A stretch of 39,986 nt of DNA from positions 1-39,986 of the IMG/VR virus record IMGVR_UViG_3300035227_000053; one strand, written 5' to 3'. The stretch comes from a virus. Taxonomy: Duplodnaviria > Caudoviricetes. Both the position numbers and the translations under genes were made by a program. The notes under the pieces were generated by a model. That model was not told the DNA's origin, did not search any database, and worked only from the letters and a program-made list of their open reading frames with translations. Positions 215 to 32,812 of this stretch are shown here, one piece after another (the first letter of the stretch is position 1; every line of letters starts with the position of its first letter).

Positions 215-634
215 TTAACCGTATTGTGGTAAGCCTAAAGATTTACGACCGTTTCCTGTGTTCTTTGCTCCAAATGTATCTTGTTGTGAATCACAATTTG
301 GACATACCAGTTGGAAGTTGCTTTGATCATTGTTAGTAGCATTACCATCTATATGATCACACCACAAAGTAATCGCTTTGCCGTTCCACTCTGTTATACC
401 ACAACAATTACATTTGTTGCCATCGCGTTTAATAACAAATTCTCTAATTAGCCGACGAGGAGTTTTTAATCCTAAATCCTTGCCAGCTAACCAATCATTG
501 TAACGTTGTTCACGTAACGTTTCTTTGCTTTGTAATCTAAATGCTTTATTGCAATCTATACTACAAAATTTTCCTCTTTTATGATGTGGGTTATAATTAA
601 ATTCTATATCACACTGTTGACATTTTCCTAACAT
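215..634 (-). CDS. HNH endonuclease with N-terminal Zn finger (putative free-standing homing endonuclease)
   Basis: CQQC..FCSIDC Zn finger; C-terminal CNCCG...DHIDGN..NN..SN..LVCPNCD HNH motif; SD AAGGAG upstream. Confidence 0.9.
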   Translation of the reverse strand: MLGKCQQCDIEFNYNPHHKRGKFCSIDCNKAFRLQSKETLREQRYNDWLAGKDLGLKTPRRLIREFVIKRDGNKCNCCGITEWNGKAITLWCDHIDGNATNNDQSNFQLVCPNCDSQQDTFGAKNTGNGRKSLGLPQYG

Positions 635-2342: not shown

Positions 2343-3887
2343 TTATGAAGCAGAAAGAACAAAACTGCTGTTAAAAGGCGTATATAGTAGCTTATTGGGT
2401 GCATCTAACAGTGATCTATTATCGTTATAGTCAATACCGGAAGAAGTACTATGTAACACGTCATTTGGTGCTAAATTCGTCATTTTTTGCTGTAATTGTG
2501 CTGTAGTTAGGTGTGGATTTAGTTGTAAAATAGTTGCTCCTAAGCCACAAACCTGTGGGCTAGCCATACTAGTACCCGAAATACTTCCTTGCCTAAATGA
2601 TGAGTCTAAATAATAATCAGCGTCGTTATGTCCATTTGTATCACTAAATGCACTTCTAATATTACTTCCTGGAGCCCATATTGTAACACCTGGACCTCTT
2701 GTACTAAAACTACTAATTCTATCTAAACCACCAGTATGTGTAGCAGAATCTACACTACCTACCATAAATGCTCCATCGCTGTATGGTGAACTACCTCTAT
2801 GATAATTTCTAGTAGTAGATGAATACGTTAATGTATTATCATAGTCTGTTCCAGTACTTACATCCACTTTAAAACTATTATTACCAGCGGCAATACATAC
2901 ATGTACTCCAGCCGCTATCATTTCTTCTACATCAGAGTCTACACTTGCCACTCTTACTGGAACTCGAAAATTTCCCCAGACTAGATAAGGAAAAAATCCA
3001 TACGTTTCAGACATATACGCATTACTTTCATTCCATTGTGTATCATTATTTTCATCATATGTTGTTCCTCTATAATTAATACTTGTTATATTATCAAATG
3101 AATTACCAATAGATGTACTATATCCCCAACTCATATTAACTATAGTTGGTCTACCATTTGTTTTATTATTGTGCCATTCTTTGATAACATCAAAACAGTT
3201 GCTAATAGGAATACCGCCACTATCGCCACTACCTTCGAGACCACCTACTTTAACAGAATAAATTCTAGCATTTTTGGCCCATCCATAAGTTAATCCTGTC
3301 GCTGTTCCAGCAACATGTGTACCGTGTCCATTAAAATCTCTATAATGATTGGCACTTTGCGTTCCAGTTAATCCACTTTCGTCATACCAATCTATTTCTT
3401 GTACTCTACTAACACCATCCGCATCTTCAAATTCTGGATGATCTACTTGTAATCCTGAATCTTGTATTACTACATCAACACCTGTACCATCTAATGTATA
3501 TGTAAAATCCCCGCCTGGATCAATATTACTTGTACCATATGGATTTGTGCTTTCCATACATCTACGCATACCCCAATTAAGCTGACTCCCACTATCAGAT
3601 GTAGTTTTTGTAAAATTTCCAGATTGAGATGCTAAAAATCCAATTTCAATATCATCTCGTTGATCGGGTGGTATTTCTACATCACGTACTCTAGGGTCGT
3701 TTTTTAGTTGTTCTGCTTCTTGATCTGTTAATGAGTAGTGTGTGCTTCGTTGACTACCTGGTCTAGGATTGGCTACGTCAACTACTCTATTTGGAATAAC
3801 ACCTGCACCCGTGTTATCAATCATTTCTTGATTGAATTGAGCAAAATCTATATCAGGGTTTAAAACAACAATGTATTCTTTTTCCAT
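2343..3887 (-). CDS. subtilisin-family (S8) serine peptidase with N-terminal propeptide
   Basis: Triad motifs VVIQDSG, HGTHVAG, GTSMASP and oxyanion AAGN. Start moved to MEKEYIVV at 3887 (TAATG overlap). Confidence 0.93.
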   Translation of the reverse strand: MEKEYIVVLNPDIDFAQFNQEMIDNTGAGVIPNRVVDVANPRPGSQRSTHYSLTDQEAEQLKNDPRVRDVEIPPDQRDDIEIGFLASQSGNFTKTTSDSGSQLNWGMRRCMESTNPYGTSNIDPGGDFTYTLDGTGVDVVIQDSGLQVDHPEFEDADGVSRVQEIDWYDESGLTGTQSANHYRDFNGHGTHVAGTATGLTYGWAKNARIYSVKVGGLEGSGDSGGIPISNCFDVIKEWHNNKTNGRPTIVNMSWGYSTSIGNSFDNITSINYRGTTYDENNDTQWNESNAYMSETYGFFPYLVWGNFRVPVRVASVDSDVEEMIAAGVHVCIAAGNNSFKVDVSTGTDYDNTLTYSSTTRNYHRGSSPYSDGAFMVGSVDSATHTGGLDRISSFSTRGPGVTIWAPGSNIRSAFSDTNGHNDADYYLDSSFRQGSISGTSMASPQVCGLGATILQLNPHLTTAQLQQKMTNLAPNDVLHSTSSGIDYNDNRSLLDAPNKLLYTPFNSSFVLSAS

Positions 3888-5596
3888 TAATGTAGATCCG
3901 CCCATGCTCCGTTTGCGTAGCCTTGGAATTTATTAGTAGTTGTATTATAAATCATATCTCCATTTTCTGCCAATGAAAGTGCATTACGCTCTGTTGTAGT
4001 CATTGTAGCAAGTTTGAATGGAGTAAGTCCTGTTATTTTTACTCTGTCTGTTGCAGTTAATGATAAATCATTTCCACTTGCGAGTGTTATACTGCCTGTG
4101 CCTGTTACTGTTAAATTTGTTGTTGTTATACCTGTAAATGTTGGACTAGCAGTAGCATAAGGTTGCATAGCTGTAATCGATGCTGTATTAGTTGTAATTA
4201 ACGCTGAATTTGTATCAATATTTCCTTGAAGTGTTGCATCTGCTATAGCGAACTCTGTACGTATTACTGCACGATCTGTTGTTGCTGTAGTATCTGCCGC
4301 TGTAAACGCAGTTGTTACTACTGCATCTGCCGCACCGAATGCAGTTGTTACTACTGCATCTGCTGCACCGAATGCAGTTGTTACTACTGCATCTGCCGCC
4401 TGCATTTGTGCTGTAGTAGAATATCCACTTAAATCAGCACTACCACTTGATGTAGTTGTTGTACCACCACTTCCTAGATTTGTTGTACTTGCTGGTGGAC
4501 TACTTACTACTGCACCACTTTCTGATAATCCTGTTACACCAGGCTGTACTATGTTTTCTGCTGGGCCACCGCTACTAACTCCTTGTACTGTTTGTATACT
4601 TCTTTCAGTATAGCCAGTTATTCTGTTGCAGTGATCATATACTGGTTCTCTTTCTCCTAATGGAACTGTAGGTGAACCATCATTTTCTAATTGTGCTAAC
4701 ATCTCAGGTTCTAACAAATAAGCAAAAATATTATTACCGTTAGCATCTACTTCATAACCTTTTAAACTGTTAAATAATGCCTGCAAACTGCCTGCATACA
4801 TTTGACTTTGTGCTAGTGTCATACTACCTATGTCAATTGCTACACCAACACCAGTGTTTATTCTTAAACTAGGAGAAAATATACTACCGCCAACACTATC
4901 AGATCCTTTAAAATTATTTTCAAATGTCATAAGATTTGTAATATCTGATTTAAATGCATTTAAGTCATTAATAATACTTTGTTTTACTTCCGCTGGCATA
5001 CCAAGTAAATTACCAATGTTGTCTCCTAATTGTTTTAATAATCCACCTGTAAATGCATCTGGTCTAAATCCGCTAGAACCAATACATCCACCTATTTCAC
5101 TGTCAGCCATAGTTCCTAGTGTGTCAAGTATATCTTTACCTGCGCCTGTGAAACTACCCATTGCGTCTCTAACAACATTTGGTATGGCTTTTGGTACTAC
5201 TGGTGTTCCACAAAAATTAATCATATTTGCAATAGCGGCAAATTCTGCTACTGCGGCATTTAGTCTTGCTAGTACATTATCAATGTTAGTATGTGAAATA
5301 AAATCGTCGAGGGCTTTTTCAGCTTCTTCAAGTGCTTCTTTTAAATCTTCTAAGCCTGCAGGAATCTCTGGTATTAATCTACCTAAGTTTACTTTTAAAC
5401 ATATCTGTAAGTTTGGAAGTTTTATGCCATTTCCGGCTAATAGCATACATATAATTTCTTTTAGGCTATATGAATGAGTTTGAGCGATTACAGTGCCTGT
5501 TTTAGCGTCTACTATAACTTCACCTGTAGGTATATCTACCTTAGTGGCGTTAAGGTATTCACTTGCATCTTTAATACCGTCTGTGAAATCACTCAT
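3887..5596 (-). CDS. putative virion structural protein (baseplate/fibre-like C-terminus)
   Basis: Follows PAAR; has an Ala/Thr repeat stalk and a C-terminal TTTERNAL...GDMIYNTTTNKFQGY...W motif typical of phage fibre proteins. Confidence 0.6.
   Translation of the reverse strand: MSDFTDGIKDASEYLNATKVDIPTGEVIVDAKTGTVIAQTHSYSLKEIICMLLAGNGIKLPNLQICLKVNLGRLIPEIPAGLEDLKEALEEAEKALDDFISHTNIDNVLARLNAAVAEFAAIANMINFCGTPVVPKAIPNVVRDAMGSFTGAGKDILDTLGTMADSEIGGCIGSSGFRPDAFTGGLLKQLGDNIGNLLGMPAEVKQSIINDLNAFKSDITNLMTFENNFKGSDSVGGSIFSPSLRINTGVGVAIDIGSMTLAQSQMYAGSLQALFNSLKGYEVDANGNNIFAYLLEPEMLAQLENDGSPTVPLGEREPVYDHCNRITGYTERSIQTVQGVSSGGPAENIVQPGVTGLSESGAVVSSPPASTTNLGSGGTTTTSSGSADLSGYSTTAQMQAADAVVTTAFGAADAVVTTAFGAADAVVTTAFTAADTTATTDRAVIRTEFAIADATLQGNIDTNSALITTNTASITAMQPYATASPTFTGITTTNLTVTGTGSITLASGNDLSLTATDRVKITGLTPFKLATMTTTERNALSLAENGDMIYNTTTNKFQGYANGAWADLH
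4301..4399 (-). repeat. 33-bp in-frame tandem repeat x3 (AADAVVTTAFG)
   Basis: Near-identical units gcagttgttactactgcatctgc(c/t)gcaccgaat. Confidence 0.9.
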
Positions 5597-11639: not shown

Positions 11640-12363
11640 CGACTCTGGGCAAAATATAATTGTCAAATACCCATTGATTAGCAAACGGACTCCAGTGACT
11701 ATCTGTTTCAGAAACAGAAAGTCCTGCATCAAATATTTTTTTGCTTGGTTCCCATGCAACCTTTGCAGGATTAATTCCAAAAGCCCTTTGAAGTTGTCTA
11801 CATGCACTTTCGTCAGCTGACCTGTTAACTGAGTCGACTTCTAGTAATAAACTAAGTTTTAATATATGCTTAAAATTATAAAGTGAAGCCATATTTTCAT
11901 ACCATTTATCATTATGATCACGCTGAGCACCAGACAATGCTTTATTGCTCAATGATTCAGTTATTGAATTCTTTACAACTTGCGGTATTAGATTGGTATC
12001 ATTGCCTGTGAAAAAAACGTTTGTACCACTAGCAGTGCTATGTGGACTAAACCAAGCAAGATCTTCTAATATTAATTCAAAATACCTATTATTGACTTCT
12101 TTTAATTTGAAATTAAATTCATTATCAGAAATTAATTGTAATGCTCTATGATTAAATGTTGCATTAATAATAATAACATCTATATTTCTTATTTTTGCAT
12201 CAAGTAAACATAATTGATAATAATCATATCCTCGACCGCCAGAGGCATAATTATAATATTGATGTTGTGGGAAGTGTTCTGACAACAAATAGGTCCAACT
12301 ATTTTTCTGTTGTCCTTCTTGATTGTATGCTAAATAACTATCACCAATGAATGCTACACGCAT
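11620..12363 (-). CDS. SGNH/GDSL hydrolase-like protein
   Basis: N-terminal FIGDSY, NYASGG block II, C-terminal DSHWSP. Confidence 0.7.
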   Translation of the reverse strand: MRVAFIGDSYLAYNQEGQQKNSWTYLLSEHFPQHQYYNYASGGRGYDYYQLCLLDAKIRNIDVIIINATFNHRALQLISDNEFNFKLKEVNNRYFELILEDLAWFSPHSTASGTNVFFTGNDTNLIPQVVKNSITESLSNKALSGAQRDHNDKWYENMASLYNFKHILKLSLLLEVDSVNRSADESACRQLQRAFGINPAKVAWEPSKKIFDAGLSVSETDSHWSPFANQWVFDNYILPRVVDILSE

Positions 12364-12375
12364 AATTTTATAGTC

Positions 12376-12771
12376 CTATCGTAATTTATTTTTTGATTCT
12401 ATTGTAGTTAGACTTTTTTCTCTATCTAAGAATTTGTATTCTAGTTTTACTGGTTCAAATGCTTCATCAATCATATCGAATATAGTTTGTGGGTTAAATT
12501 CAGCACATGAATAAACATCCATTTGCAATAATCCAGGATCAACTTCGTCCCAAATATGTACTGCAATGTGTGATGTTTCTATAATTACTACGCCAGTTAG
12601 TCCTTTATTTCCTGGTACATCAACATATGCTGTAATAGGGCCTTGACATATGTCCATTTTTATTTCTTGTACTACTTTTACTAGCCATGAATGCAACCAC
12701 TTAGGATCAGTTGGTGTTTTGTTGGTTTCTGCTCTTATAATAAGATGCTTGTGTTTTATTATGTCAGCCAT
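12376..12771 (-). CDS. speD: pyruvoyl-dependent S-adenosylmethionine decarboxylase family proenzyme
   Basis: GLTGVVIIETSHIAVHIWDE self-cleavage motif and DVYSC. Confidence 0.88.
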   Translation of the reverse strand: MADIIKHKHLIIRAETNKTPTDPKWLHSWLVKVVQEIKMDICQGPITAYVDVPGNKGLTGVVIIETSHIAVHIWDEVDPGLLQMDVYSCAEFNPQTIFDMIDEAFEPVKLEYKFLDREKSLTTIESKNKLR

Positions 12772-20460: not shown

Positions 20461-20468
20461 TATTTATC
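20461..20468 (-). promoter_or_regulatory. late-type promoter GATAAATA
   Basis: Located at the boundary between the helicase gene and the late cluster. Confidence 0.6.
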
Positions 20469-21877
20469 TAACTATTGCTTCTTTTGAGCATACTACGTAA
20501 TTTGTCATGCCCTTCAATGGTACTTTCAACAACACTATTTTCTGCAATATTCTTTTCTTGATGTGAAACTTTGTTTTTTGCCTTAATCTTTTCAAACATA
20601 GCACTAGAATTACTCATAGTATCGTGTTTCTCATCTTCGTCTAAGTCACTAATACGTAACCCTGCTATATCAAATTTAAGATCTACTTTATGCCCAACGC
20701 CACTGCTACTACGTGTTTTCATAAATTGTACTTGATAACGCCCACGTTCACGCATCGCTTGACTTGTAAAGATACCAATTACATTATCTGCTGTTTGTAC
20801 TTTACTTAAACCACCTGCAATGTGCGAATGATCGTATTCTACTTCTTCTACTGCACCTCTATTTAACTGTGATGCTGTTGCAAACAATATATCATGTTCT
20901 ACTGCAAAATTACGCATTTCTTCTGATACAAACTTATCTTTAATATATAAATCACTTGGATTAACTTTACTTTGTGCTGGCATCATAAGATCTAAGTAGT
21001 CAATACACATTGCATCAACTTTAACATCATTTTTAACTTCGTATTCACGCAAATAACTAGTAATGTTATTAATTGTAATACCGTTTGGAAGTTGTACAAT
21101 TTGTAGTTTGCCTGCTTTCTTGCCTTTCATACGTACTTTTAAATCTACATCATCTGCATTTTTAAATACTGTACGAGTATCATATCCAGTAATCATGCTG
21201 TCTAATCGCATACTAGATAATTCTTCACTAAGTTCCAAAGTAATGTATACAACATTTAATCCTGCAACCGACCAATTAAGTGCTAAATTCTGCAAGAACA
21301 AACTCTTACCACCACCCGATGGTGCAGCAAATATGTTTAGTTCGCCTCTATTAAATCCACCAAAAAGTTTTTTATCAATATCTTTCCAACCTGTGCTTAC
21401 ACCACCACGCAAATTACGAACACGTTCAATACGCTCTGCTGGTGATTCCCAATAGTCAGTACCCATATGTTTAGCCAGTCCAATTTGAACTGCTTCTTTG
21501 ATTCTTCGTTCAACTGGGCCATACTCACCTCGTTCTAGCATGTCTGCACTTGCTAAAATTGCTGCTTCTAATGCTTTATGTTTACAAAATGTTTCAAATT
21601 CATCAATAAACCATTTATGATGTCTATCATCTACATCTTTAAGTTCTTGTAACTCGAGCCCTGTTGCCGCTAGAATTTGCTCACGTGTAGGCAATGCACT
21701 ATACCCAGTAACATGTTCTTGTATAAATGCTACTCCTTTACGTAATTCTCTATCAAAATATAATGGATCTATAATTCCATTAACTCTAGCGAATAGATCT
21801 TTATCTTGTGCTAGAAATTCAACAAACAATCGTTGTAAGTCTACATTATACTCTTTCGCTTGTGACTGTTCTCTCAT
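20468..21877 (-). CDS. replicative DnaB-family helicase (T4 gp41-like)
   Basis: Walker A APSGGGKS; ITLELSE, IDYLDLM, TASQLNR and MKTR motifs. Confidence 0.95.
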   Translation of the reverse strand: MREQSQAKEYNVDLQRLFVEFLAQDKDLFARVNGIIDPLYFDRELRKGVAFIQEHVTGYSALPTREQILAATGLELQELKDVDDRHHKWFIDEFETFCKHKALEAAILASADMLERGEYGPVERRIKEAVQIGLAKHMGTDYWESPAERIERVRNLRGGVSTGWKDIDKKLFGGFNRGELNIFAAPSGGGKSLFLQNLALNWSVAGLNVVYITLELSEELSSMRLDSMITGYDTRTVFKNADDVDLKVRMKGKKAGKLQIVQLPNGITINNITSYLREYEVKNDVKVDAMCIDYLDLMMPAQSKVNPSDLYIKDKFVSEEMRNFAVEHDILFATASQLNRGAVEEVEYDHSHIAGGLSKVQTADNVIGIFTSQAMRERGRYQVQFMKTRSSSGVGHKVDLKFDIAGLRISDLDEDEKHDTMSNSSAMFEKIKAKNKVSHQEKNIAENSVVESTIEGHDKLRSMLKRSNS

Positions 21878-22887
21878 TTACAATATTTCCTCATTAATAA
21901 TTCAATTTTTGTTGGATTAGTTTCAGCACTATTTATTATACTCTTTATTGTATACAATCTTCCGTGTTTTGTCAAGGAATCACTTGCATCTTTACAATCT
22001 TTCCATTCTGGAAAAGAAACACTCCAACCGTGCTTTATTGCCGCCTTACACATTAACTTACCTGCTTCATCTGCGTCTGGTAATACAATAATTCGTTTGT
22101 TCAAACTGTGCAATATATCTGCTTGGTCATCATTTATGTTATTACTGCCTATTGCACATCCATCTGTTACTATTGCATCAAGTTGTCCTTCAGATACAAT
22201 AACAACTTCTTTATTGTGTGTTTGTCTATCTAAACCATACACAAAATCATTCTTAGGTTGCTGATTATAGTATTTAGGCATTTTTGCAGGAATATTGTCT
22301 CCTGCCCATCTTGCTGTATAACCAACTACTTTACTTTTATATGTAAACGGCAAAATAAATCTTTTGTTAACTCTACCTTGTTTTTTACTAGGGCTCCACA
22401 TAAACCTATCATCAGTAATATCAAATCCACGATCAGTTAAGTATGTTACCGCGGCTGTCCAATCAGCGTCTGGTTCAGTGAACTCCATAAATGGCTTGGC
22501 ATCTTCTGGTAGTTCTTTTTCGTCCCAATCAATAACTAAATTTTTACGCCTTTTAGTTTTTATTAATAAGGTTGCTACATCTTGTTCACGTAACAATTCA
22601 AGTTGTATACGTTGTATATCAGCTTCATCGGCACCTAATGTTGTTAATAGTTGCTTTAATCTTACTGATATTCTACTTTGTGGACTCCAACCTGTTTTAA
22701 AGTTACAATTAAAACAATTATACTGAAACTTTCCTTCATCAAAATGAAATCCGCCTCTGCCTTTTGTATCTGGTCTACTTTGCCCATTCCTTACACACAT
22801 TGGACAGTTACCACTAATCCAACCACTAGGATTAGATCGCCAGTTAGTAGGAACCAGGGCTCTGACGTAATCATTCATTAAAGTCAT
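21874..22887 (-). CDS. DNA primase (T4 gp61-like)
   Basis: CPMC...YNCFNC Zn finger; TOPRIM SEGQLDA and PDADEAG. Confidence 0.92.
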   Translation of the reverse strand: MTLMNDYVRALVPTNWRSNPSGWISGNCPMCVRNGQSRPDTKGRGGFHFDEGKFQYNCFNCNFKTGWSPQSRISVRLKQLLTTLGADEADIQRIQLELLREQDVATLLIKTKRRKNLVIDWDEKELPEDAKPFMEFTEPDADWTAAVTYLTDRGFDITDDRFMWSPSKKQGRVNKRFILPFTYKSKVVGYTARWAGDNIPAKMPKYYNQQPKNDFVYGLDRQTHNKEVVIVSEGQLDAIVTDGCAIGSNNINDDQADILHSLNKRIIVLPDADEAGKLMCKAAIKHGWSVSFPEWKDCKDASDSLTKHGRLYTIKSIINSAETNPTKIELLMRKYCK

Positions 22888-23793: not shown

Positions 23794-24165
23794 ATGCAAA
23801 CTAAACACCAGAAACTTTTAGATGAGTATCCATTTTTAACCGTTATCGAATATGCAGGCAAAGAATATCTTGGCGTAGTCCAAAACATAGATAGTCACGT
23901 GGCCAGCATATATATTTACGAGCGCCTAAAGGATAAAGCAGAACGAATTAGATTTTTAAAACTTGGCGACGAATGGTGGTGGGAAACAAATAGGAAACTA
24001 CCTATAAACATTGCATTACTTAATAGATGGAATTTCCAACACTGCATTATGAGTTATAATGTTAAACAAATGGAAATAGTAGCAGGACCAGAAGTAAGAT
24101 TAAGTGACAGCATCACTAAACGTATCAAACGTAGAAGTATTAACCTTGTAAAGAAAAGCCCTTAG
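23794..24165 (+). CDS. hypothetical protein; the only convincing plus-strand gene
   Basis: Fills an otherwise empty gap; natural composition (YPFLT...EYLGVVQN...WWWETNRKLPINI). Confidence 0.85.
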   Translation: MQTKHQKLLDEYPFLTVIEYAGKEYLGVVQNIDSHVASIYIYERLKDKAERIRFLKLGDEWWWETNRKLPINIALLNRWNFQHCIMSYNVKQMEIVAGPEVRLSDSITKRIKRRSINLVKKSP

Positions 24166-24724
24166 CCAGCATATTTAATTGCAACACTATAGCCATTGCG
24201 TAAGCGTGGCCATGTGCCTTCTTGAAGTAGTAACTTTCATTAGTAGGTTTAACCCATACATCTTTATTAATAGTATCCCAGTCTTTTCCTATTAAATATC
24301 TTTTAGCAGGTCTTATCACGGCTAATACGGCTGCTAGTTGTGATACACTTGTTGGCTTCATTTGACTTACAATTCCAAAGTGTTTATGAATGTGAAAACA
24401 TTGTTCAACTACTTCTTTGTGTTCTAACAACTCCCACATTGGGTCTTTATCAAGCAAATCTACTAATTGTTTCTTAGTTTTAATATGTTTGTATAAACTA
24501 ACATTAAGAACATCAATTTTAAAATAACCTATTTCTTCTGCTTCTTTATAATCAACTGTACTAAGACCAGTAAATGGATTACTAGGAATATCATGAAAGT
24601 AAACACCAGTATTATGTTTCACTTGTTTTTTATCTCTAGCAATCATTGCCGGTGTGCCTTTAATTATTTTCAATAACTTATCTCTATTTGCTGTATCTAT
24701 ATCAATGTCTGTGTTTACTATCAT
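24140..24724 (-). CDS. miniature family C DNA polymerase (DnaE/Pol III alpha catalytic core-like), 194 aa
   Basis: TDIDID, KHNTGVY, GYFKIDVL, LAVIRP and YYFKKAHGHAY in DnaE order. Start at MIVNT via ATGA overlap. Confidence 0.85.
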   Translation of the reverse strand: MIVNTDIDIDTANRDKLLKIIKGTPAMIARDKKQVKHNTGVYFHDIPSNPFTGLSTVDYKEAEEIGYFKIDVLNVSLYKHIKTKKQLVDLLDKDPMWELLEHKEVVEQCFHIHKHFGIVSQMKPTSVSQLAAVLAVIRPAKRYLIGKDWDTINKDVWVKPTNESYYFKKAHGHAYAMAIVLQLNMLAKGFSLQG

Positions 24725-25392
24725 ATTCCTGCCTGCTCCAATATTCTTTCTACCCATTTACTATCTTGTGGATTTACACTCATTGTGCGTTGCCAATAGC
24801 CTGTTTCTAGATAATCAGTTATCATTTTTAACTGTTCATCATTTAGGCTATCAATTAACCTTTGTGCTTCTTTACTATTAAATAAAACCCATGGTGATAT
24901 TTTTCCACTACATATATGAAACACTGCTAAATTAGTTGGTATATCATTAAAATACTGACTGTAGTGCGTATTATTTTCTTCTGCCCATTCTTGTAAAAAT
25001 ATAATTGTACGTTCTACACCCCTATCAACAGATTCTGTCTTTAAACGATCTTTCATCCAATTTGCAAATTGGCTATCCTTGCCCCAATTATCAAGTTTTA
25101 TTTGATTTCTTATAAGCCAGGTTGCATACCCAGGTACATCATCAATGCCAATATCACGACAATAATAGCCAAATTTACAAAAACTAATGTAATATTGACT
25201 CTTTGCAAATTCTTCATATGTTTTATCATTTTTTGTATTTGTTCCTATTTTGTAAAATAATTGATATGCTCTAAAACCAAGTTGTACATTTTTATCACCT
25301 TTTTGCACAATCCTGCGTTTCTGCTCACACATATGGACAGCTAATGTGCTTTCTCTTTTAAAAATTTTTGAGCAGTAATCACATTTATACAT
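24721..25392 (-). CDS. Zn-finger (C2H2/C2HC-like) protein in the replication operon
   Basis: YKCDYCSKIFKRESTLAVHMC at the N-terminus. Confidence 0.75.
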   Translation of the reverse strand: MYKCDYCSKIFKRESTLAVHMCEQKRRIVQKGDKNVQLGFRAYQLFYKIGTNTKNDKTYEEFAKSQYYISFCKFGYYCRDIGIDDVPGYATWLIRNQIKLDNWGKDSQFANWMKDRLKTESVDRGVERTIIFLQEWAEENNTHYSQYFNDIPTNLAVFHICSGKISPWVLFNSKEAQRLIDSLNDEQLKMITDYLETGYWQRTMSVNPQDSKWVERILEQAGI

Positions 25393-25393
25393 T

Positions 25394-25852
25394 TTATTTC
25401 TTCAACAACTCTTTTATTTCTTTCTTATTCATTCCATGTTCTTCAAACAATTCAATAAAATCATATTTTGTTTTAGTACTAACAAAGATCTCAACTTCGT
25501 CATCATTTAAATGACTGTAATTCTCTATGACCCACTTTTGTACCTTACTTTGTTTCATTGACTTGCCGGGTGCTATCCAAGGATGGAAAGTAGTTTTTCC
25601 TAATCCAACTAACTGCATCAATTGAAACTGTAACTGTGGGTGCTTACGTAACTTATTAAAGTGTACATTAACAACTTCGTTAGTCCATTCTAAATAATGC
25701 TTAGTAAAATGTTTATCACCTGCACTACTAGTATAACGCATAAGTAGCCAAATACCAAGTTTTTTCTTTTCTTCAGCAGTAAGGCTATCATACCAGCCTC
25801 TATCTTTAGTATCAATCGCTCTCATCTCTTCTTTGATGCTTAGTTTGCTCAT
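25394..25852 (-). CDS. clamp loader small subunit (T4 gp62-like)
   Basis: LLMRYTSS...NEVVN...HPQLQFQLM...FHPWI pattern and size match gp62-like proteins. Confidence 0.65.
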   Translation of the reverse strand: MSKLSIKEEMRAIDTKDRGWYDSLTAEEKKKLGIWLLMRYTSSAGDKHFTKHYLEWTNEVVNVHFNKLRKHPQLQFQLMQLVGLGKTTFHPWIAPGKSMKQSKVQKWVIENYSHLNDDEVEIFVSTKTKYDFIELFEEHGMNKKEIKELLKK

Positions 25853-26584: not shown

Positions 26585-28036
26585 TTATTGCCAATCTACT
26601 TTTTCTATAGTAAACGGATAGTTCGCTTCTTTGTAAAATTTCTTACGTTGTGTTAAGTGTCTTTTACTAAATTTTGCTGAACTAGTAATGTCCCATATTT
26701 GAACATTGTCTTTATCTTCGGCTTTTCTTATTCCACGACCAATACTTTGAATAACTCTAACAAAACTCTTGCCAGGCTCGATAAGCACCAAATTAAAAAT
26801 ACGTGGAATGTTAATACCAACTGATGCAACTCCATATGTTGCCACAACAATTTGATTTGTTCCTTCATTAATATCGTCATAATGATCTCTACGATCATTT
26901 GTTTTCATAGATCCACTAACAAAGTTAGCATGTGGTAAATTATCACAAATTAATCCACCTGCTTTAATTCTGTCTACTAATACAAGTGTATTACCTGATT
27001 GAGATATTTTATCAATCAATCCACTTATATGTTCCATACGTGCTTTATCAGTAGTAAGATATGATAACTCACTTTGGTAGTTATTGTATTCAGCAAACTC
27101 TTTTAACTGAATTACATTAACATGACACTGACTAAGTACATCTATTTTTTGTAGTTCACTTGCACTAAGTCTATTAGTTACTTCACCTAAACATGCTTGT
27201 AAACTAACTTTCTCATGATCTGCTTTTGGAATTGTTCCTGTAAGTCCCCAACGAATTGGTACATTTGCAAATTCCTTAGTTAATAAGTCTTTGAGTACAT
27301 CAGCCTTCGCTTGATGTACTTCGTCCACTATAACGCAAACTACGTTGTCTGTGAAGTCCTGTAAACTAAGTTCGCTTAATCCATCACGGAACCTTTTTCT
27401 AATACTGTTTAAACTCTGCCACGTGCAGATAGTATGGGTCTTTCCTATCTCTTTTTTGTCGCCGAAATAAACGCCGACATCTAGTCCTAAGTTCGCGTAA
27501 TCGTCAGAAGTTTGTCTAACCAAGTCTTTATTTGGTACGATAACAATTGACCTTCCATACTTTTCTGCACGTTCAGAGAGTGCTGCCGTAATAAGTGTTT
27601 TACCTGCTCCTGTTGCAATTTCTTGCAAACAATGAGGTGTTTCTAAAAATTTATTTATACATTCAATTTGATAATCACGTAACGTGATCTTTTCACCAGC
27701 TAATTGGTGCTTTTCTGGCCATACTTTATGTTCAAATGTTGTTTCATCTACATGAGCGAATTTAAAATCATATATATTTCTAAGGTCATTAACATCTATT
27801 TGATAACCATCGTTCATTATAATAGGTAATACTCTATCAAGTAGATTAGTGTAAGTTATTCCACCAACTGTAAAGTAACTCGTACAACCATCCCATCTAC
27901 CTAACTTATATGCTGGTACATGAAACGCATACGGAAGAAAGAATTTTAATTCTTTTTCACATTTTCTACGGGTGGTAATATTTAGACCTTCTACTTTACA
28001 ATTTACTTCATCTTTTAAAGTAATTTTACATTTCAT
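26585..28036 (-). CDS. uvsW: SF2 DNA helicase UvsW
   Basis: LRDYQ, ATGAGKT, DEVH, GLTGT and QSIGRGIR motifs. Confidence 0.92.
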   Translation of the reverse strand: MKCKITLKDEVNCKVEGLNITTRRKCEKELKFFLPYAFHVPAYKLGRWDGCTSYFTVGGITYTNLLDRVLPIIMNDGYQIDVNDLRNIYDFKFAHVDETTFEHKVWPEKHQLAGEKITLRDYQIECINKFLETPHCLQEIATGAGKTLITAALSERAEKYGRSIVIVPNKDLVRQTSDDYANLGLDVGVYFGDKKEIGKTHTICTWQSLNSIRKRFRDGLSELSLQDFTDNVVCVIVDEVHQAKADVLKDLLTKEFANVPIRWGLTGTIPKADHEKVSLQACLGEVTNRLSASELQKIDVLSQCHVNVIQLKEFAEYNNYQSELSYLTTDKARMEHISGLIDKISQSGNTLVLVDRIKAGGLICDNLPHANFVSGSMKTNDRRDHYDDINEGTNQIVVATYGVASVGINIPRIFNLVLIEPGKSFVRVIQSIGRGIRKAEDKDNVQIWDITSSAKFSKRHLTQRKKFYKEANYPFTIEKVDWQ

Positions 28037-28152: not shown

Positions 28153-29019
28153 TTATGCTCTTCGCATACAAGTAACTTCTGCAGTTCGTTTCCACTTCTC
28201 GTCACCAAAACTCTTTTTCAAGTCTGCAAGTTTAGTTACCATACGTAAACTAATTTCACGCATCCTATCTTTATTATCAAGCATGAAATTTAAAATCTCT
28301 GCCTCTTCTTTTGCAGTAAATTGATATTCATTAAGCATACCATCTGCAACAATTTGTTGACATCTTAAAATCTTTTCACGCATAGTATCCATTGTAAGAT
28401 CTAAGTAATGACATCTTGACATAATTGCCGCTAAGTGATCTTTAATTTTACCACGTACATTATCAAACTTAAGGTTAGTAATAAAAATAACACTACCTTG
28501 GAATTCAAACATATCTGGAATTCCTTCACGTCTTAGTAATGCACTATCTGTATTCCAGTTCAATGTACGTTTCTTACATGAATCAAGTGCCGCTTTAAGT
28601 AAGTTAAGTGATGTTTCATCATATAGTACTGTATCACAGTCATCTAATACTAATACACTTTTTGAGTTAGCATTATTAAAAAGTACTTTGTACAAACCAA
28701 TTGCACTAGAAGCACCTTTAACAGTTTCAAATTTTGTTCCGTTACCAGCCATAACGTCAAACAAACTATTTTTTTCTAATACTTGTTCAACACCATAACT
28801 TTTACCAACTCCTGGAGGGCCTGTTACAACCATACCACGCACAACACCATCAATTGAGGCTTGTGTCATTTCATCTAATATTTGAAAACGCTCTCGCATA
28901 CGTTCTATAATTTGAGCATCTGTTTCGTTAGGGTTGTCCTTCACATTATTAGGAAGAACTTCAACAATTGTCTCGCCTTTTCTATTTTTACGAGATCTTT
29001 TAAGTTGCATCTTAGCCAT
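28153..29019 (-). CDS. AAA+ P-loop ATPase
   Basis: Walker A GPPGVGKS, Walker B VLVLDDCD, sensor IFITN and Arg-finger SRC. Confidence 0.88.
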   Translation of the reverse strand: MAKMQLKRSRKNRKGETIVEVLPNNVKDNPNETDAQIIERMRERFQILDEMTQASIDGVVRGMVVTGPPGVGKSYGVEQVLEKNSLFDVMAGNGTKFETVKGASSAIGLYKVLFNNANSKSVLVLDDCDTVLYDETSLNLLKAALDSCKKRTLNWNTDSALLRREGIPDMFEFQGSVIFITNLKFDNVRGKIKDHLAAIMSRCHYLDLTMDTMREKILRCQQIVADGMLNEYQFTAKEEAEILNFMLDNKDRMREISLRMVTKLADLKKSFGDEKWKRTAEVTCMRRA

Positions 29020-31008: not shown

Positions 31009-31467
31009 CTATAGTGAAATATCTTCAAGACCTGCCGCTCTGAGCTTAACAATGTTATTAATTTGGAATCCTTTAGCCTCTAGTGCTTTAATTATTCCAA
31101 TGTACTTGTTTCGTACTAAACTAAAATCATTAATAAGATATTGTAAATCTACAATTTCTTGTTCACCATCTACAAATTTATCTGCATCACGTGAACTAAG
31201 TGCTTTGTTATAATTTTCTAAAAACTTACGAAATGTTCTGGCTCGTATTTTACGCATTTCTATATTAAGAAACTCAAGTATTGCCTCAACCTCTTGTAAC
31301 TGGTTGAATCTATGTTCTACTATACCTGGCATTTCTCTACTATGCTTTTCTAGGATACCTTTCATACTGCATTCATACCGAGCCTCATCTATTTGTTTCT
31401 CATAATGAGCAATAGCAGGAACTATCTCTCCTAGATTTTCTGTTACTTTACGATACCACGTACTCAT
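31009..31467 (-). CDS. uvsY: recombination mediator UvsY
   Basis: C-terminal KGFQINNIVKLRAAGLED; near uvsX. Confidence 0.85.
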   Translation of the reverse strand: MSTWYRKVTENLGEIVPAIAHYEKQIDEARYECSMKGILEKHSREMPGIVEHRFNQLQEVEAILEFLNIEMRKIRARTFRKFLENYNKALSSRDADKFVDGEQEIVDLQYLINDFSLVRNKYIGIIKALEAKGFQINNIVKLRAAGLEDISL

Positions 31468-31733
31468 TAATACTCGTGCTCCTCATCATCATTATATTCT
31501 TCAACAAATTCATCTTCCTCTTCTTCTTCCGTAAAATGAGTATCTAATGCTTCAGCTAAGTATTCGCAATGATCTGCTATTTCTTTATAAGCTGGTTTAA
31601 GATCAAATCCAAAATCCTCCATATGATTTAAAGTTTTACGAGCCCATTCTAACTTATCTTTGTCTGCTATAAATTCTTGTGCTTCATCATATAAATTAAA
31701 AACAAACTCAAAATCTCCATCAGTTAAATTCAT
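31467..31733 (-). CDS. small acidic hypothetical protein
   Basis: 88 aa with an Asp/Glu tail, coupled between uvsX and uvsY. Confidence 0.8.
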   Translation of the reverse strand: MNLTDGDFEFVFNLYDEAQEFIADKDKLEWARKTLNHMEDFGFDLKPAYKEIADHCEYLAEALDTHFTEEEEEDEFVEEYNDDEEHEY

Positions 31734-32812
31734 ACTGTCTCCTCCTGTGTTGTTTCTTCAGTTTTCTCAGCATCAGCAACGTCATCATCATATTCTAACA
31801 TTATTGTGTCTAATGCACCATTTTTATTTGCATTCCATGGTTTACGAAACATTTTAATTATTTCACCTGTTACAGGACTAGTGTATTCTAAACTGTTTCC
31901 ACTTTTTACTAGCAAACCCTTCGCTTCAAAAAAGTCTGTTAGTCCGCTATGCACACTCATACCTGTTTCATATGGAATTTCAACTTGTACTGATTCAAAT
32001 GGTTTTGCATAACGTGATTTCATTACTTTACACGCCGCTCTAATACCAAATACTTGACTAGTTTTATTTCCATCAGCATCTATTTTTAATTTAAGTTTCT
32101 TCATCGCAATAACGATACTTGATGCATATATAAATCCTTGTCCACCTGATATCTTATCATCTGGATCAAACATATCTTGCGATGCATATGTATGGTTAGT
32201 TGCTAGTAATCCTACGTTGTATTGTCCAAACATATTAACTGTGTTACGTACTAATGATGTTAGTGCTTTAGGTTTACGACCCATATCACCCTTCATGTCA
32301 CCTTTTTGAAACTGGTCAACATCTGTTGGAGTTAGTAGCATACCTAATGAATCAACTACAAACAACACTTTAGGTCGCTCTTCTGATTCTGTCTCAGAAT
32401 ACTCTGCTTTGTAATCTTTCATAAAGTCACTAATTGTTTTAGCAACATCATCAATCATACTCATGTTTAATTTTAGTAGTTTTTCTGGTGTAGTGTCTAC
32501 GTTTAGTGCATGGAGCCATTTCTCATCGAGTGCGTTTTCCGAATCAATAAGAATAACAAAAATGCCCTGGTCTTGTGCCGCTTTAACTACGTTACCTGCG
32601 GCAATAAATGATTTACCTGCACCGCTTTCGCCTGCAAGTACTGTTACTTTACCTAATGGAATGCCTTTATTAAAGTCATTACTAATAAGTTTGTTTAATG
32701 TGTAATTTCCGGTACTAATCCAAGTATCTGGGTCGTTGAATCCAACACTTAACCCAGGAACACTTTTAGTAATACTTTTTCGGAATTTACTTACGTCAAA
32801 TGGTCTTGCCAT
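31730..32812 (-). CDS. uvsX: RecA-like recombinase UvsX
   Basis: GESGAGKS, IDSENA, VVDSLG, TNHTY and SGGQG motifs. Confidence 0.95.
   Translation of the reverse strand: MARPFDVSKFRKSITKSVPGLSVGFNDPDTWISTGNYTLNKLISNDFNKGIPLGKVTVLAGESGAGKSFIAAGNVVKAAQDQGIFVILIDSENALDEKWLHALNVDTTPEKLLKLNMSMIDDVAKTISDFMKDYKAEYSETESEERPKVLFVVDSLGMLLTPTDVDQFQKGDMKGDMGRKPKALTSLVRNTVNMFGQYNVGLLATNHTYASQDMFDPDDKISGGQGFIYASSIVIAMKKLKLKIDADGNKTSQVFGIRAACKVMKSRYAKPFESVQVEIPYETGMSVHSGLTDFFEAKGLLVKSGNSLEYTSPVTGEIIKMFRKPWNANKNGALDTIMLEYDDDVADAEKTEETTQEETV

What the first reader, a model, noticed from the sequence alone, without database searches (positions are those of the whole stretch)
24140..24724. Miniature 194-aa family C DNA polymerase core inside a T4-type replisome operon
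Seen: DnaE-like motifs in correct order (DIDID, HNTGV, FKIDVL, LAVIRP, YYFKKAHGHAY) in an intact ORF coupled by ATGA to a Zn-finger gene, itself directly after a gp62-like clamp-loader gene. Known: cellular DnaE is over 1000 aa with PHP, thumb, finger and OB domains, while T4-like replisomes use a family B polymerase. Inference: all three catalytic aspartates seem retained with the intervening domains cleanly removed. That suggests a selected minimal nucleotidyltransferase (priming/repair, or a multi-subunit polymerase completed by the neighbouring genes) rather than decay.
Basis: partly seen in the sequence, partly recalled or inferred. Interest (0 to 1): 0.8.

Follow-up and report, generated by a model that had tools for sequence, protein, structure and literature searches.

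The report
Half of a split phage mini-polymerase
This small phage gene is real and strongly conserved, but it is the aspartate-bearing half of a two-gene, stripped-down bacterial-type DNA polymerase described from sequence in 2021; it is predicted to pair with a second half encoded far away and likely fills short DNA stretches beside the phage's main polymerase, which I found no bench test of.

Summary
The ORF is real (24140-24724, minus strand, 194 aa), under purifying selection, and folds like DnaE/PolC residues ~398-788. It keeps D401/D403/D555, K553, R639-P640 and the H760 steric gate; the thumb and most fingers are deleted. It is not a self-contained core: it lacks the GRGS nucleotide-binding motif (DnaE ~320-392). 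That part is a separate ~168-aa gene: present in 92 of 96 phage records matched by a natural fusion, and 117 kb away in a relative whose copy is 83% identical and which also encodes a family B polymerase. The two cognate halves dock in prediction (ipSAE 0.90, best control 0.01; likeness to solved DnaE may drive this). Iyer et al. 2021 (PMC7824862) described this split minimal Pol III alpha of group 2.2 jumbo phages, and this scan found it three times before on other DNA. The window (11% of a genome) holds neither the N-half nor PolB. Likely function: a low-processivity dNTP primer-extender or gap-filler beside PolB; untested. Added here: one natural N+C fusion, a non-jumbo 141-kb carrier, and a residue map arguing against RNA priming. 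New member of a known, uncharacterised family.

The parts
24140..24724 (-). C-terminal (Mg2+- and template-binding) half of a split minimal Pol III alpha, 194 aa. D6/D8/D10 = E. coli D401/D403/D405; H37 = H511; K69/D71 = K553/D555; R138-P139 = R639-P640; Y165/F167/K169/H171/Y175 = Y754/F756/K758/H760/Y764. Thumb (~DnaE 415-508) replaced by a beta-hairpin, fingers ~642-749 replaced by ~20 residues.
   Evidence: the D6/D8 and H37 anchors were set by hand from the motifs and agree with the 398-788 range of the structural match
24721..25392 (-). 223-aa protein with an N-terminal C2H2/C2HC-type zinc finger and an all-helical body, ATGA-coupled to the mini-polymerase; possibly a gp59-like helicase loader (weak lead only). 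Not shown to be a polymerase subunit.
   Evidence: VIA 1c1k (T4 gp59) only Z 3.4, rank 45; Foldseek 'Loader of DNA helicase' ranks 6-7, E 0.56-0.59
25394..25852 (-). 152-aa protein, likely small clamp-loader subunit (T4 gp62-like); lead-level support
   Evidence: Its homologue (E 8.8e-12) directly follows the RFC-type clamp-loader ATPase gene in phage Slicko01; ESM Atlas 0.94 to a cluster with PF16790 on 11% of members; no direct Pfam, PHROG-name or PDB support
23794..24165 (+). 123-aa conserved protein of unknown function (PHROG 11637), convergent with the mini-polymerase and overlapping its 3' end by 26 nt; adjacent in 82 of 82 loci
21874..22887 (-). Toprim DNA primase (T4 gp61-like), context
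20468..21877 (-). DnaB-like replicative helicase (gp41-like), context
26585..28036 (-). UvsW-like SF2 helicase, context (UvsY-like 31009-31467 and UvsX-like 31730-32812 lie further upstream)

Best explanation
The gene encodes the aspartate-bearing C-terminal half of the split minimal DNA polymerase III alpha of group 2.2 jumbo phages, which is predicted to pair with a ~168-aa GRGS-motif N-terminal half encoded far away and likely works as a low-processivity, DNA-templated dNTP polymerase that extends primers or fills short gaps at the fork beside the family B replicase. Shown: homology, fold match, residue retention, purifying selection, and distant N-half plus PolB in relatives. Predicted: the heterodimer. 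Inferred: activity, dNTP preference, low processivity (no thumb, PHP, OB or clamp-binding region) and a role in primer extension or gap filling.
For: The C-half model matches DnaE 398-788 (5m1s Z 8.5, rmsd 3.6, 192 aligned; best 2hpi Z 9.6, rmsd 3.4). The N-half profile matches DnaE 320-392 including GRGS (E 1.2e-7; PF07733 E 1.1e-8), so the halves abut at 393/398. One natural protein, P0174, fuses them in the right order with an ~8-residue linker, and Pfam PF07733 reads across its junction (residues 97-207). tblastn of P0174 gives 188 places in 96 phage records, and its N part alone hits 92 records. G001 (C-half 83% identical; 14 window genes 75-90% identical) carries the N-half ~117 kb away and a PolB in an 897-aa open frame. 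4 of 4 complete or whole records tested carry N-half and PolB, each also the C-half. The cognate pair of G001 scores ipSAE 0.90 against a best control of 0.01; the runs agree in at least 95% of contacts, partner pLDDT at least 88; the mark was reached by 116 of 157 solved and 2 of 215 mismatched pairs; the interface includes C-half 1-13 and 168-175 and N-half 129-142. Of the residues listed within 4 A of dGTP or the templating base in E. coli Pol III (bioRxiv 10.64898/2026.06.29.735100, passages), the halves together keep R362, G363, S364 (85 of 85 each), D401, D403 (96 of 96), Y754 (69 of 96), F756 (83), H760 (95), R639 (95), P640 (96), and also K553 (96). H760 is the ribonucleotide steric gate. 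Iyer et al. describe the same two-part anatomy and name Atu_ph07 as group 2.2; Atu_ph07 holds the syntenic orthologue.
Against: No activity has been shown, and I found no test in print. The window's own contig is ~11% complete and holds neither N-half nor PolB, so the partner is inferred from relatives. Several phosphate-binding residues of DnaE are lost: R390 aligns to E (84 of 85), R396 falls in the split, R709/K714/K715 are deleted, N757 is K; R390A lowers efficiency 27-fold in E. coli. Foldseek against the PDB gave no match at E 0.001 or better (best 1.7e-3). The complex pass may come from likeness to solved DnaE. The fusion is a single sequence on one 2.4-kb contig whose DNA I could not fetch. 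G004 (60% complete) has C-half and PolB but no N-half match. Nothing here separates fork work from repair.
Confidence: 0.7

Rival explanations
1. The same heterodimer works mainly in repair or recombination-dependent restart (lesion bypass, D-loop extension with UvsX/UvsY/UvsW) and not in normal fork progression.
For: uvsW, uvsY and uvsX lie in the same gene block (79, 66 and 64 of 82 loci, counts limited by contig ends). The loss of thumb, PHP and several phosphate contacts would suit a low-fidelity enzyme. Iyer et al. offer repair as one option.
Against: The base-pair pocket residues Y754/F756/H760 are kept. Both genes persist even in a 141-kb phage, as core replication genes do.
Confidence: 0.15
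2. One reading: the 194-aa protein is a self-contained nucleotidyltransferase or primase, or is completed by the neighbouring Zn-finger, gp62-like or convergent proteins.
For: All three aspartates are in this chain and it folds confidently alone (pLDDT 94.7). The neighbours are syntenic (81, 78 and 82 of 82 loci). 4 of 96 records gave no N-half place by tblastn.
Against: The GS motif and R362, whose mutation abolishes Pol III activity, are absent from this chain and from the window. One of the records with a single tblastn place (Slicko01) has an N-half by profile (E 3.5e-12), and another (W12-3, 109 kb) is far shorter than its 345-kb relatives. The whole block from ssb to helicase is syntenic, so adjacency singles out no partner, and extra DNA of 78 nt or more separates the Zn-finger gene from the polymerase gene in 44 of 81 loci. 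The steric-gate His argues against RNA priming.
Confidence: 0.06
3. The pair is a template-independent or non-DNA nucleotidyltransferase (terminal transferase, signalling or counter-defence nucleotide chemistry) that reuses the Pol-beta-type palm.
For: The DNA-gripping thumb and most fingers are gone. R390 is replaced by a conserved acid and the N-half has ~90 N-terminal residues with no DnaE match.
Against: The template-contacting R639-P640 and primer-contacting K553 equivalents are nearly invariant, and the gene stays inside the replication block.
Confidence: 0.06
4. A decayed or catalytically dead DnaE remnant, kept at most as a scaffold.
For: Loss of R390/R396/R709 equivalents; no activity data.
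Against: dN/dS 0.05-0.26; length 167-219 aa, median 196, in 87 full-length distant representatives; invariant catalytic residues; 7,958 of 8,000 scored candidates are homologues.
Confidence: 0.03

Closest known systems
Split minimal DNA polymerase III alpha of group 2.2 jumbo phages (Iyer et al. 2021, Viruses 13:63, PMC7824862); C-terminal unit = PHROG 11778
   Same: Two stand-alone proteins (N-terminal NTP-binding; C-terminal Mg2+- and template-binding) on distant genes, no other Pol III domains, family B polymerase alongside; orthologue in Atu_ph07, a phage the paper names as group 2.2.
   Different: Nothing structural found. The passages I read do not mention a natural fusion (P0174), a 141-kb non-jumbo carrier (Slicko01) or the residue-level losses (R390, R396, R709). 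Figure 3b and the supplement could not be seen, so identity by accession was not checked.
Bacterial replicative family C polymerases DnaE / PolC (E. coli Pol III alpha, 1160 aa)
   Same: Pol-beta-type palm fold, catalytic D401/D403/D555, K553, RP motif, helix-loop-helix with the H760 steric gate.
   Different: 194 aa (+168 aa in trans) against 1160 aa; no PHP, thumb, most fingers, OB or C-terminal region; GS motif on another chain; R390, R396, R709, K714, K715 not kept.
Bacillus subtilis DnaE as primer extender handing over to PolC, and eukaryotic Pol alpha / Pol beta gap fillers (recalled, no call)
   Same: A second, low-processivity polymerase beside the main replicase: a functional analogy only.
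   Different: Here the main replicase is family B and the helper is a two-gene family C miniature; no hand-over has been shown.

Membership tests
Split minimal Pol III alpha, group 2.2 jumbo phages (Iyer 2021) | Stand-alone protein homologous to the C-terminal Mg2+/template-binding part of Pol III alpha | tested here: met
   Profile hits DnaE 539-641 and 750-767; model aligns to DnaE 398-788 (Z 8.5, rmsd 3.6, 192 aligned)
Split minimal Pol III alpha, group 2.2 jumbo phages (Iyer 2021) | Separate N-terminal NTP-binding protein on a distant gene (in the lineage) | tested here: met
   G001, 83% identical C-half, N-half ~117 kb away; 92 of 96 records; GAP32 ~33 kb, Atu_ph07 ~182 kb, Slicko01 ~11 kb
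Split minimal Pol III alpha, group 2.2 jumbo phages (Iyer 2021) | N-half and PolB in this very genome | tested here: inconclusive
   Not in the 39,986-nt contig, which is estimated 11% complete
Split minimal Pol III alpha, group 2.2 jumbo phages (Iyer 2021) | No other Pol III domains in the protein | tested here: met
   The whole 194 aa aligns within DnaE 398-788; a search among longer proteins gave 1 hit of 1,483 candidates, without an N-half
Split minimal Pol III alpha, group 2.2 jumbo phages (Iyer 2021) | Co-occurs with a family B polymerase | tested here: met
   PF00136 over cut-off in 4 of 4 whole records and 2 of 5 partial relatives (the two longest)
Split minimal Pol III alpha, group 2.2 jumbo phages (Iyer 2021) | Same accessions as the paper's Figure 3b / supplement | not testable with these tools
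   Figure not held; supplement is an unreadable .rar
Canonical family C replicase (DnaE/PolC) | Three catalytic aspartates in a Pol-beta-type palm | tested here: met
   D6, D8, D71 invariant in 96 of 96; mapped to D401/D403/D555
Canonical family C replicase (DnaE/PolC) | GS motif, PHP, thumb, full fingers and OB on one chain | tested here: not met
   No GRGS in any frame of the window; chain covers 398-788 with internal deletions only
Canonical family C replicase (DnaE/PolC) | Template-directed DNA synthesis | not testable with these tools
   Needs a bench assay
T4 gp62 clamp-loader small subunit (for 25394-25852) | Match to PF16790 / gp62 structure | tested here: inconclusive
   No direct HMM hit; Atlas cluster with PF16790 on 11% of members, score 0.94; homologue follows the RFC gene in Slicko01
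T4 gp59 helicase loader (for 24721-25392) | Fold match to gp59 | tested here: inconclusive
   VIA Z 3.4, rmsd 3.3, 84 aligned, rank 45; Foldseek E 0.56-0.59

The most novel reading that the evidence does not exclude
These phages run a hybrid B + C replisome: a ~360-residue, two-gene family C heterodimer without thumb, PHP or OB is an essential Pol-alpha-like lagging-strand enzyme that takes RNA primers from the phage primase, adds a short DNA tract and hands over to the clamp-loaded PolB, with conserved lysines (C-half K141/K168, N-half K164/K168) standing in for the lost arginines. It would be by far the smallest working family C polymerase.
Probability: 0.25. Interest if true: 0.7.

Novelty: new member of a known kind. 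Interest (0 to 1): 0.3.

Why it matters
The gene itself is one more copy of a family described from sequence in 2021 and met three times before in this scan. The open question is still worth an experiment: whether two proteins of 168 and 194 aa rebuild a working family C active site would define the minimal Pol III catalytic module and explain why a large, widespread phage group keeps a second polymerase beside PolB.

Tried and rejected
Single-sequence searches missed the DnaE link: no Pfam family at E 0.1 and no PDB sequence at E 10; a family profile or fold was needed. Foldseek against the PDB gave no hit at E 0.001, though ranks 1-15 were Pol III/PolC chains or titled 'DNA polymerase'. N-half or PolB in the window: none; uninformative at 11% completeness. 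Stand-alone C-half in the Alishewanella phages, suggested by single tblastn places: rejected for Slicko01 by profile search; Slickus01 was not searched. Further fusions: the 'longer' search found only P0394, whose extension is not an N-half; the DNA of P0174 was not found in viral contigs. Idea that N-half residues 61-92 match DnaE 263-319: not supported (40 of 500 shuffles reach the score). Direct gp62 test by PF16790 in five genomes: 0 of 5. gp59 identity of the Zn-finger protein: no clear fold match. The 123-aa convergent protein: no informative PDB sequence match; not folded, and no binding to the polymerase was tested for any neighbour. Epsilon-like exonuclease next to uvsW in GAP32: no homologue in the other 81 of 82 loci or the window. 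Expression: three marine runs labelled RNA gave only short low-depth contigs (one 200-nt piece inside the ORF, in a run whose RNA status is a guess): no evidence either way. Literature: eight searches turned up no experimental study of the family, judged from listings; the Sharanji paper only lists the N-half as 'DnaE' (passages).

Full report
Observation. The finding's coordinates hold an intact ORF on the minus strand, 24724 to 24140, 194 aa; the plus strand is closed. The five motifs are present in the order given. The stop of the upstream Zn-finger gene overlaps the start as ATGA, and the 123-aa gene 23794-24165 converges on the 3' end with a 26-nt overlap. The window is a linear virus record of 39,986 nt, estimated 11% complete, 34% G+C, with terminase, UvsX-, UvsY- and UvsW-like genes, primase and DnaB-like helicase on the same strand.

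The gene is selected, not decayed. 7,958 of 8,000 scored candidates are homologues; 84 of 121 closest sequences are exactly 194 aa; 87 full-length representatives at 29-55% identity are 167-219 aa, median 196 (partial representatives and P0174 were left out of this count). D6, D8, K69, D71 and P139 are invariant in 96 of 96. Pairwise dN/dS against the window is 0.05-0.26 in 17 of 24 non-redundant loci; the other 7 are saturated at synonymous sites. 96 phage records hold it, among them Atu_ph07, PA5oct, XacN1, RaK2, GAP32 and 121Q. The gene order is conserved: in 82 loci the convergent gene follows in 82, the Zn-finger gene is found in 81, the 152-aa gene in 78 and the primase in 76, the misses partly at contig ends.

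What part of DnaE it is. The AF2 model (pLDDT 94.7) has family C polymerases as its seven best matches among 48,161 chains (Z 9.6 to 6.5; next 4.2), and aligns over 192 residues to E. coli alpha 398-788. Foldseek ranks the same entries first but none reaches E 0.001. A profile of 96 sequences aligns to E. coli DnaE 539-641 and 750-767. With hand-set anchors for the first two motifs: D6/D8 = D401/D403, H37 = H511, K69/D71 = K553/D555, R138-P139 = R639-P640, Y165/F167/H171 = Y754/F756/H760. About 95 residues between DnaE 415 and 509 (thumb) shrink to a hairpin and about 110 finger residues to about 20. But the chain starts at DnaE 398, so it lacks the N-terminal palm (271-393) with the GS motif R362-G363-S364, which contacts the incoming dNTP; R362A abolishes activity (bioRxiv 10.64898/2026.06.29.735100, passages). 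No GRGS motif occurs in any frame of the window.

The missing half exists elsewhere. One representative, P0174 (375 aa), carries a GRGSS-bearing domain directly in front of the C-half, and Pfam PF07733 reads across the junction. It is a single sequence on one 2,415-nt contig whose DNA I could not fetch. As a query it finds 188 places in 96 phage records; its first 180 residues find 92 records. In GAP32 the halves are ~33 kb apart, in Atu_ph07 ~182 kb. G001, a 205-kb contig whose orthologues of 14 window genes are 75-90% identical, carries a 168-aa N-half ~117 kb from the C-half and a family B polymerase in an 897-aa open frame. The N-half family has 1,698 hits among 1,710 candidates, maps to DnaE 320-392 and keeps GRGSS in 85 of 85 aligned sequences. 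None of 23 N-half loci shows any of the 14 window genes within 4 kb. Four whole records (G006, Atu_ph07, GAP32, Slicko01) all hold N-half and PolB and the C-half; Slicko01 is only 141 kb. Of five partial relatives picked by their C-half, one showed the N-half and two PolB. The cognate G001 halves were folded together: ipSAE 0.90 in the median run, best of three controls 0.01, runs agreeing in at least 95% of contacts, partner pLDDT at least 88; the mark was reached by 116 of 157 solved complexes and 2 of 215 mismatched pairs. Halves of a split gene can pass by likeness to solved DnaE, so this shows fit, not binding in the cell.

It is in print. Iyer et al. [quoted passage not shown] They name Atu_ph07 as group 2.2. 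The figure and the supplement could not be seen, which leaves accession-level identity unchecked. PHROG 11778 already labels the family DNA polymerase. Eight searches (listings only, apart from the four papers named here) showed no bench study. Three earlier reports of this scan reached the same reading on other genomes; I had written it down before opening them.

Likely mechanism. Shown: homology, fold match, residue retention, selection, co-occurrence. Predicted: the heterodimer. Inferred: the two halves together keep most residues that line the nascent base pair in E. coli Pol III (R362, G363, S364; D401, D403; Y754 69 of 96, F756 83, H760 95; R639 95, P640 96; K553 96), so a templated polymerase is the simplest reading. 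H760 is the steric gate against ribonucleotides (PMC8485763 passages), and a Toprim primase lies two genes downstream, so RNA priming is unlikely. Without thumb, PHP, OB and C-terminal region the enzyme would be distributive and without its own proofreading, which fits primer extension or gap filling with hand-over to PolB. Against easy activity: R390 aligns to glutamate (84 of 85), R396 falls in the split, and R709, K714 and K715 are deleted; conserved lysines (C-half K141 86 of 96, K168 89 of 96; N-half K164 79 of 85, K168 83 of 85) might stand in (inference). Fork work and repair cannot be told apart from these data.

Neighbours. The 152-aa gene is plausibly the small clamp-loader subunit: its homologue follows the RFC-type ATPase in Slicko01 and the Atlas links it to a cluster with PF16790 on 11% of members, but direct profile tests are negative. 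The Zn-finger protein folds confidently (pLDDT 91.6 without its first 20 residues) with only weak hints of gp59. The tight ATGA coupling is found in 31 of 81 loci. No binding of a neighbour to the polymerase was tested.

Verdict. Observation confirmed; interpretation partly supported. The gene is a new member of a family described from sequence in 2021 and, as far as my searches reach, still untested. Interest 0.3; the boldest reading (an essential Pol-alpha-like two-gene family C enzyme in a B + C replisome) has a probability of about 0.25 and would deserve 0.7.

Noticed in passing
P0174 (375 aa, one ENA contig of 2,415 nt): Natural in-order fusion of the N- and C-halves with an ~8-residue linker; the only one seen among 150 listed representatives and the 'longer' search; singleton, DNA not seen.
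   Followed up: partly
L118 (OQ508956.1, Alishewanella phage Slicko01, 141 kb): C-half 67570-68181, N-half 79020-79532 in the record: A non-jumbo phage carries both halves only ~11 kb apart plus PolB; there the RFC ATPase, the 152-aa homologue, the Zn-finger homologue, one extra gene and the C-half run in a row.
   Followed up: yes
window 23794-24165 (+): 123-aa protein with a conserved WWW-x-x-N-R motif and a basic tail, convergent with and overlapping the polymerase end, adjacent in 82 of 82 loci; no family name or PDB match.
   Followed up: partly
window 24721-25392 (-): Eukaryote-like C2H2/C2HC finger (PF00096 E 8.6e-5, below cut-off) on an all-helical body; weak hints of a gp59-like helicase loader.
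   Followed up: partly
L001:11986-12558 (Atu_ph07, YP_009611739.1): The annotated CDS starts at locus position 12067, downstream of where the match with the DxDxD motif begins (12001), so the database protein appears to lack two catalytic aspartates.
   Followed up: no
L002:6729-7574 (GAP32_275): A Pol III epsilon-like exonuclease lies just upstream of uvsW in GAP32; no homologue in the other 81 loci or the window, so it is not a general partner.
   Followed up: yes
L083 (GAP32 247206-249770): The GAP32 N-half gene lies four genes upstream of the gp44-like clamp-loader ATPase, while the likely small subunit lies beside the C-half: both two-part machines are split between the same two regions in this phage.
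   Followed up: no
window 28153-29019 (-): 288-aa AAA+ ATPase (PHROG 1250, unknown function; weak clamp-loader hit) upstream of uvsW in 71 of 82 loci.
   Followed up: no
window 2343-3905 (-), 12376-12771 (-), 215-634 (-): Subtilase-family peptidase (PF00082), S-adenosylmethionine decarboxylase (PF02675) and a Cys/His-rich ORF that looks like an HNH nuclease by eye (no Pfam hit at 0.001).
   Followed up: no
L089 (G001:31366-34674): The N-half of the close relative sits among genes that look like ClpP, GroES, RpiB and a MazG-type pyrophosphatase (labels by eye from the translations, no call), not among replication genes.
   Followed up: no
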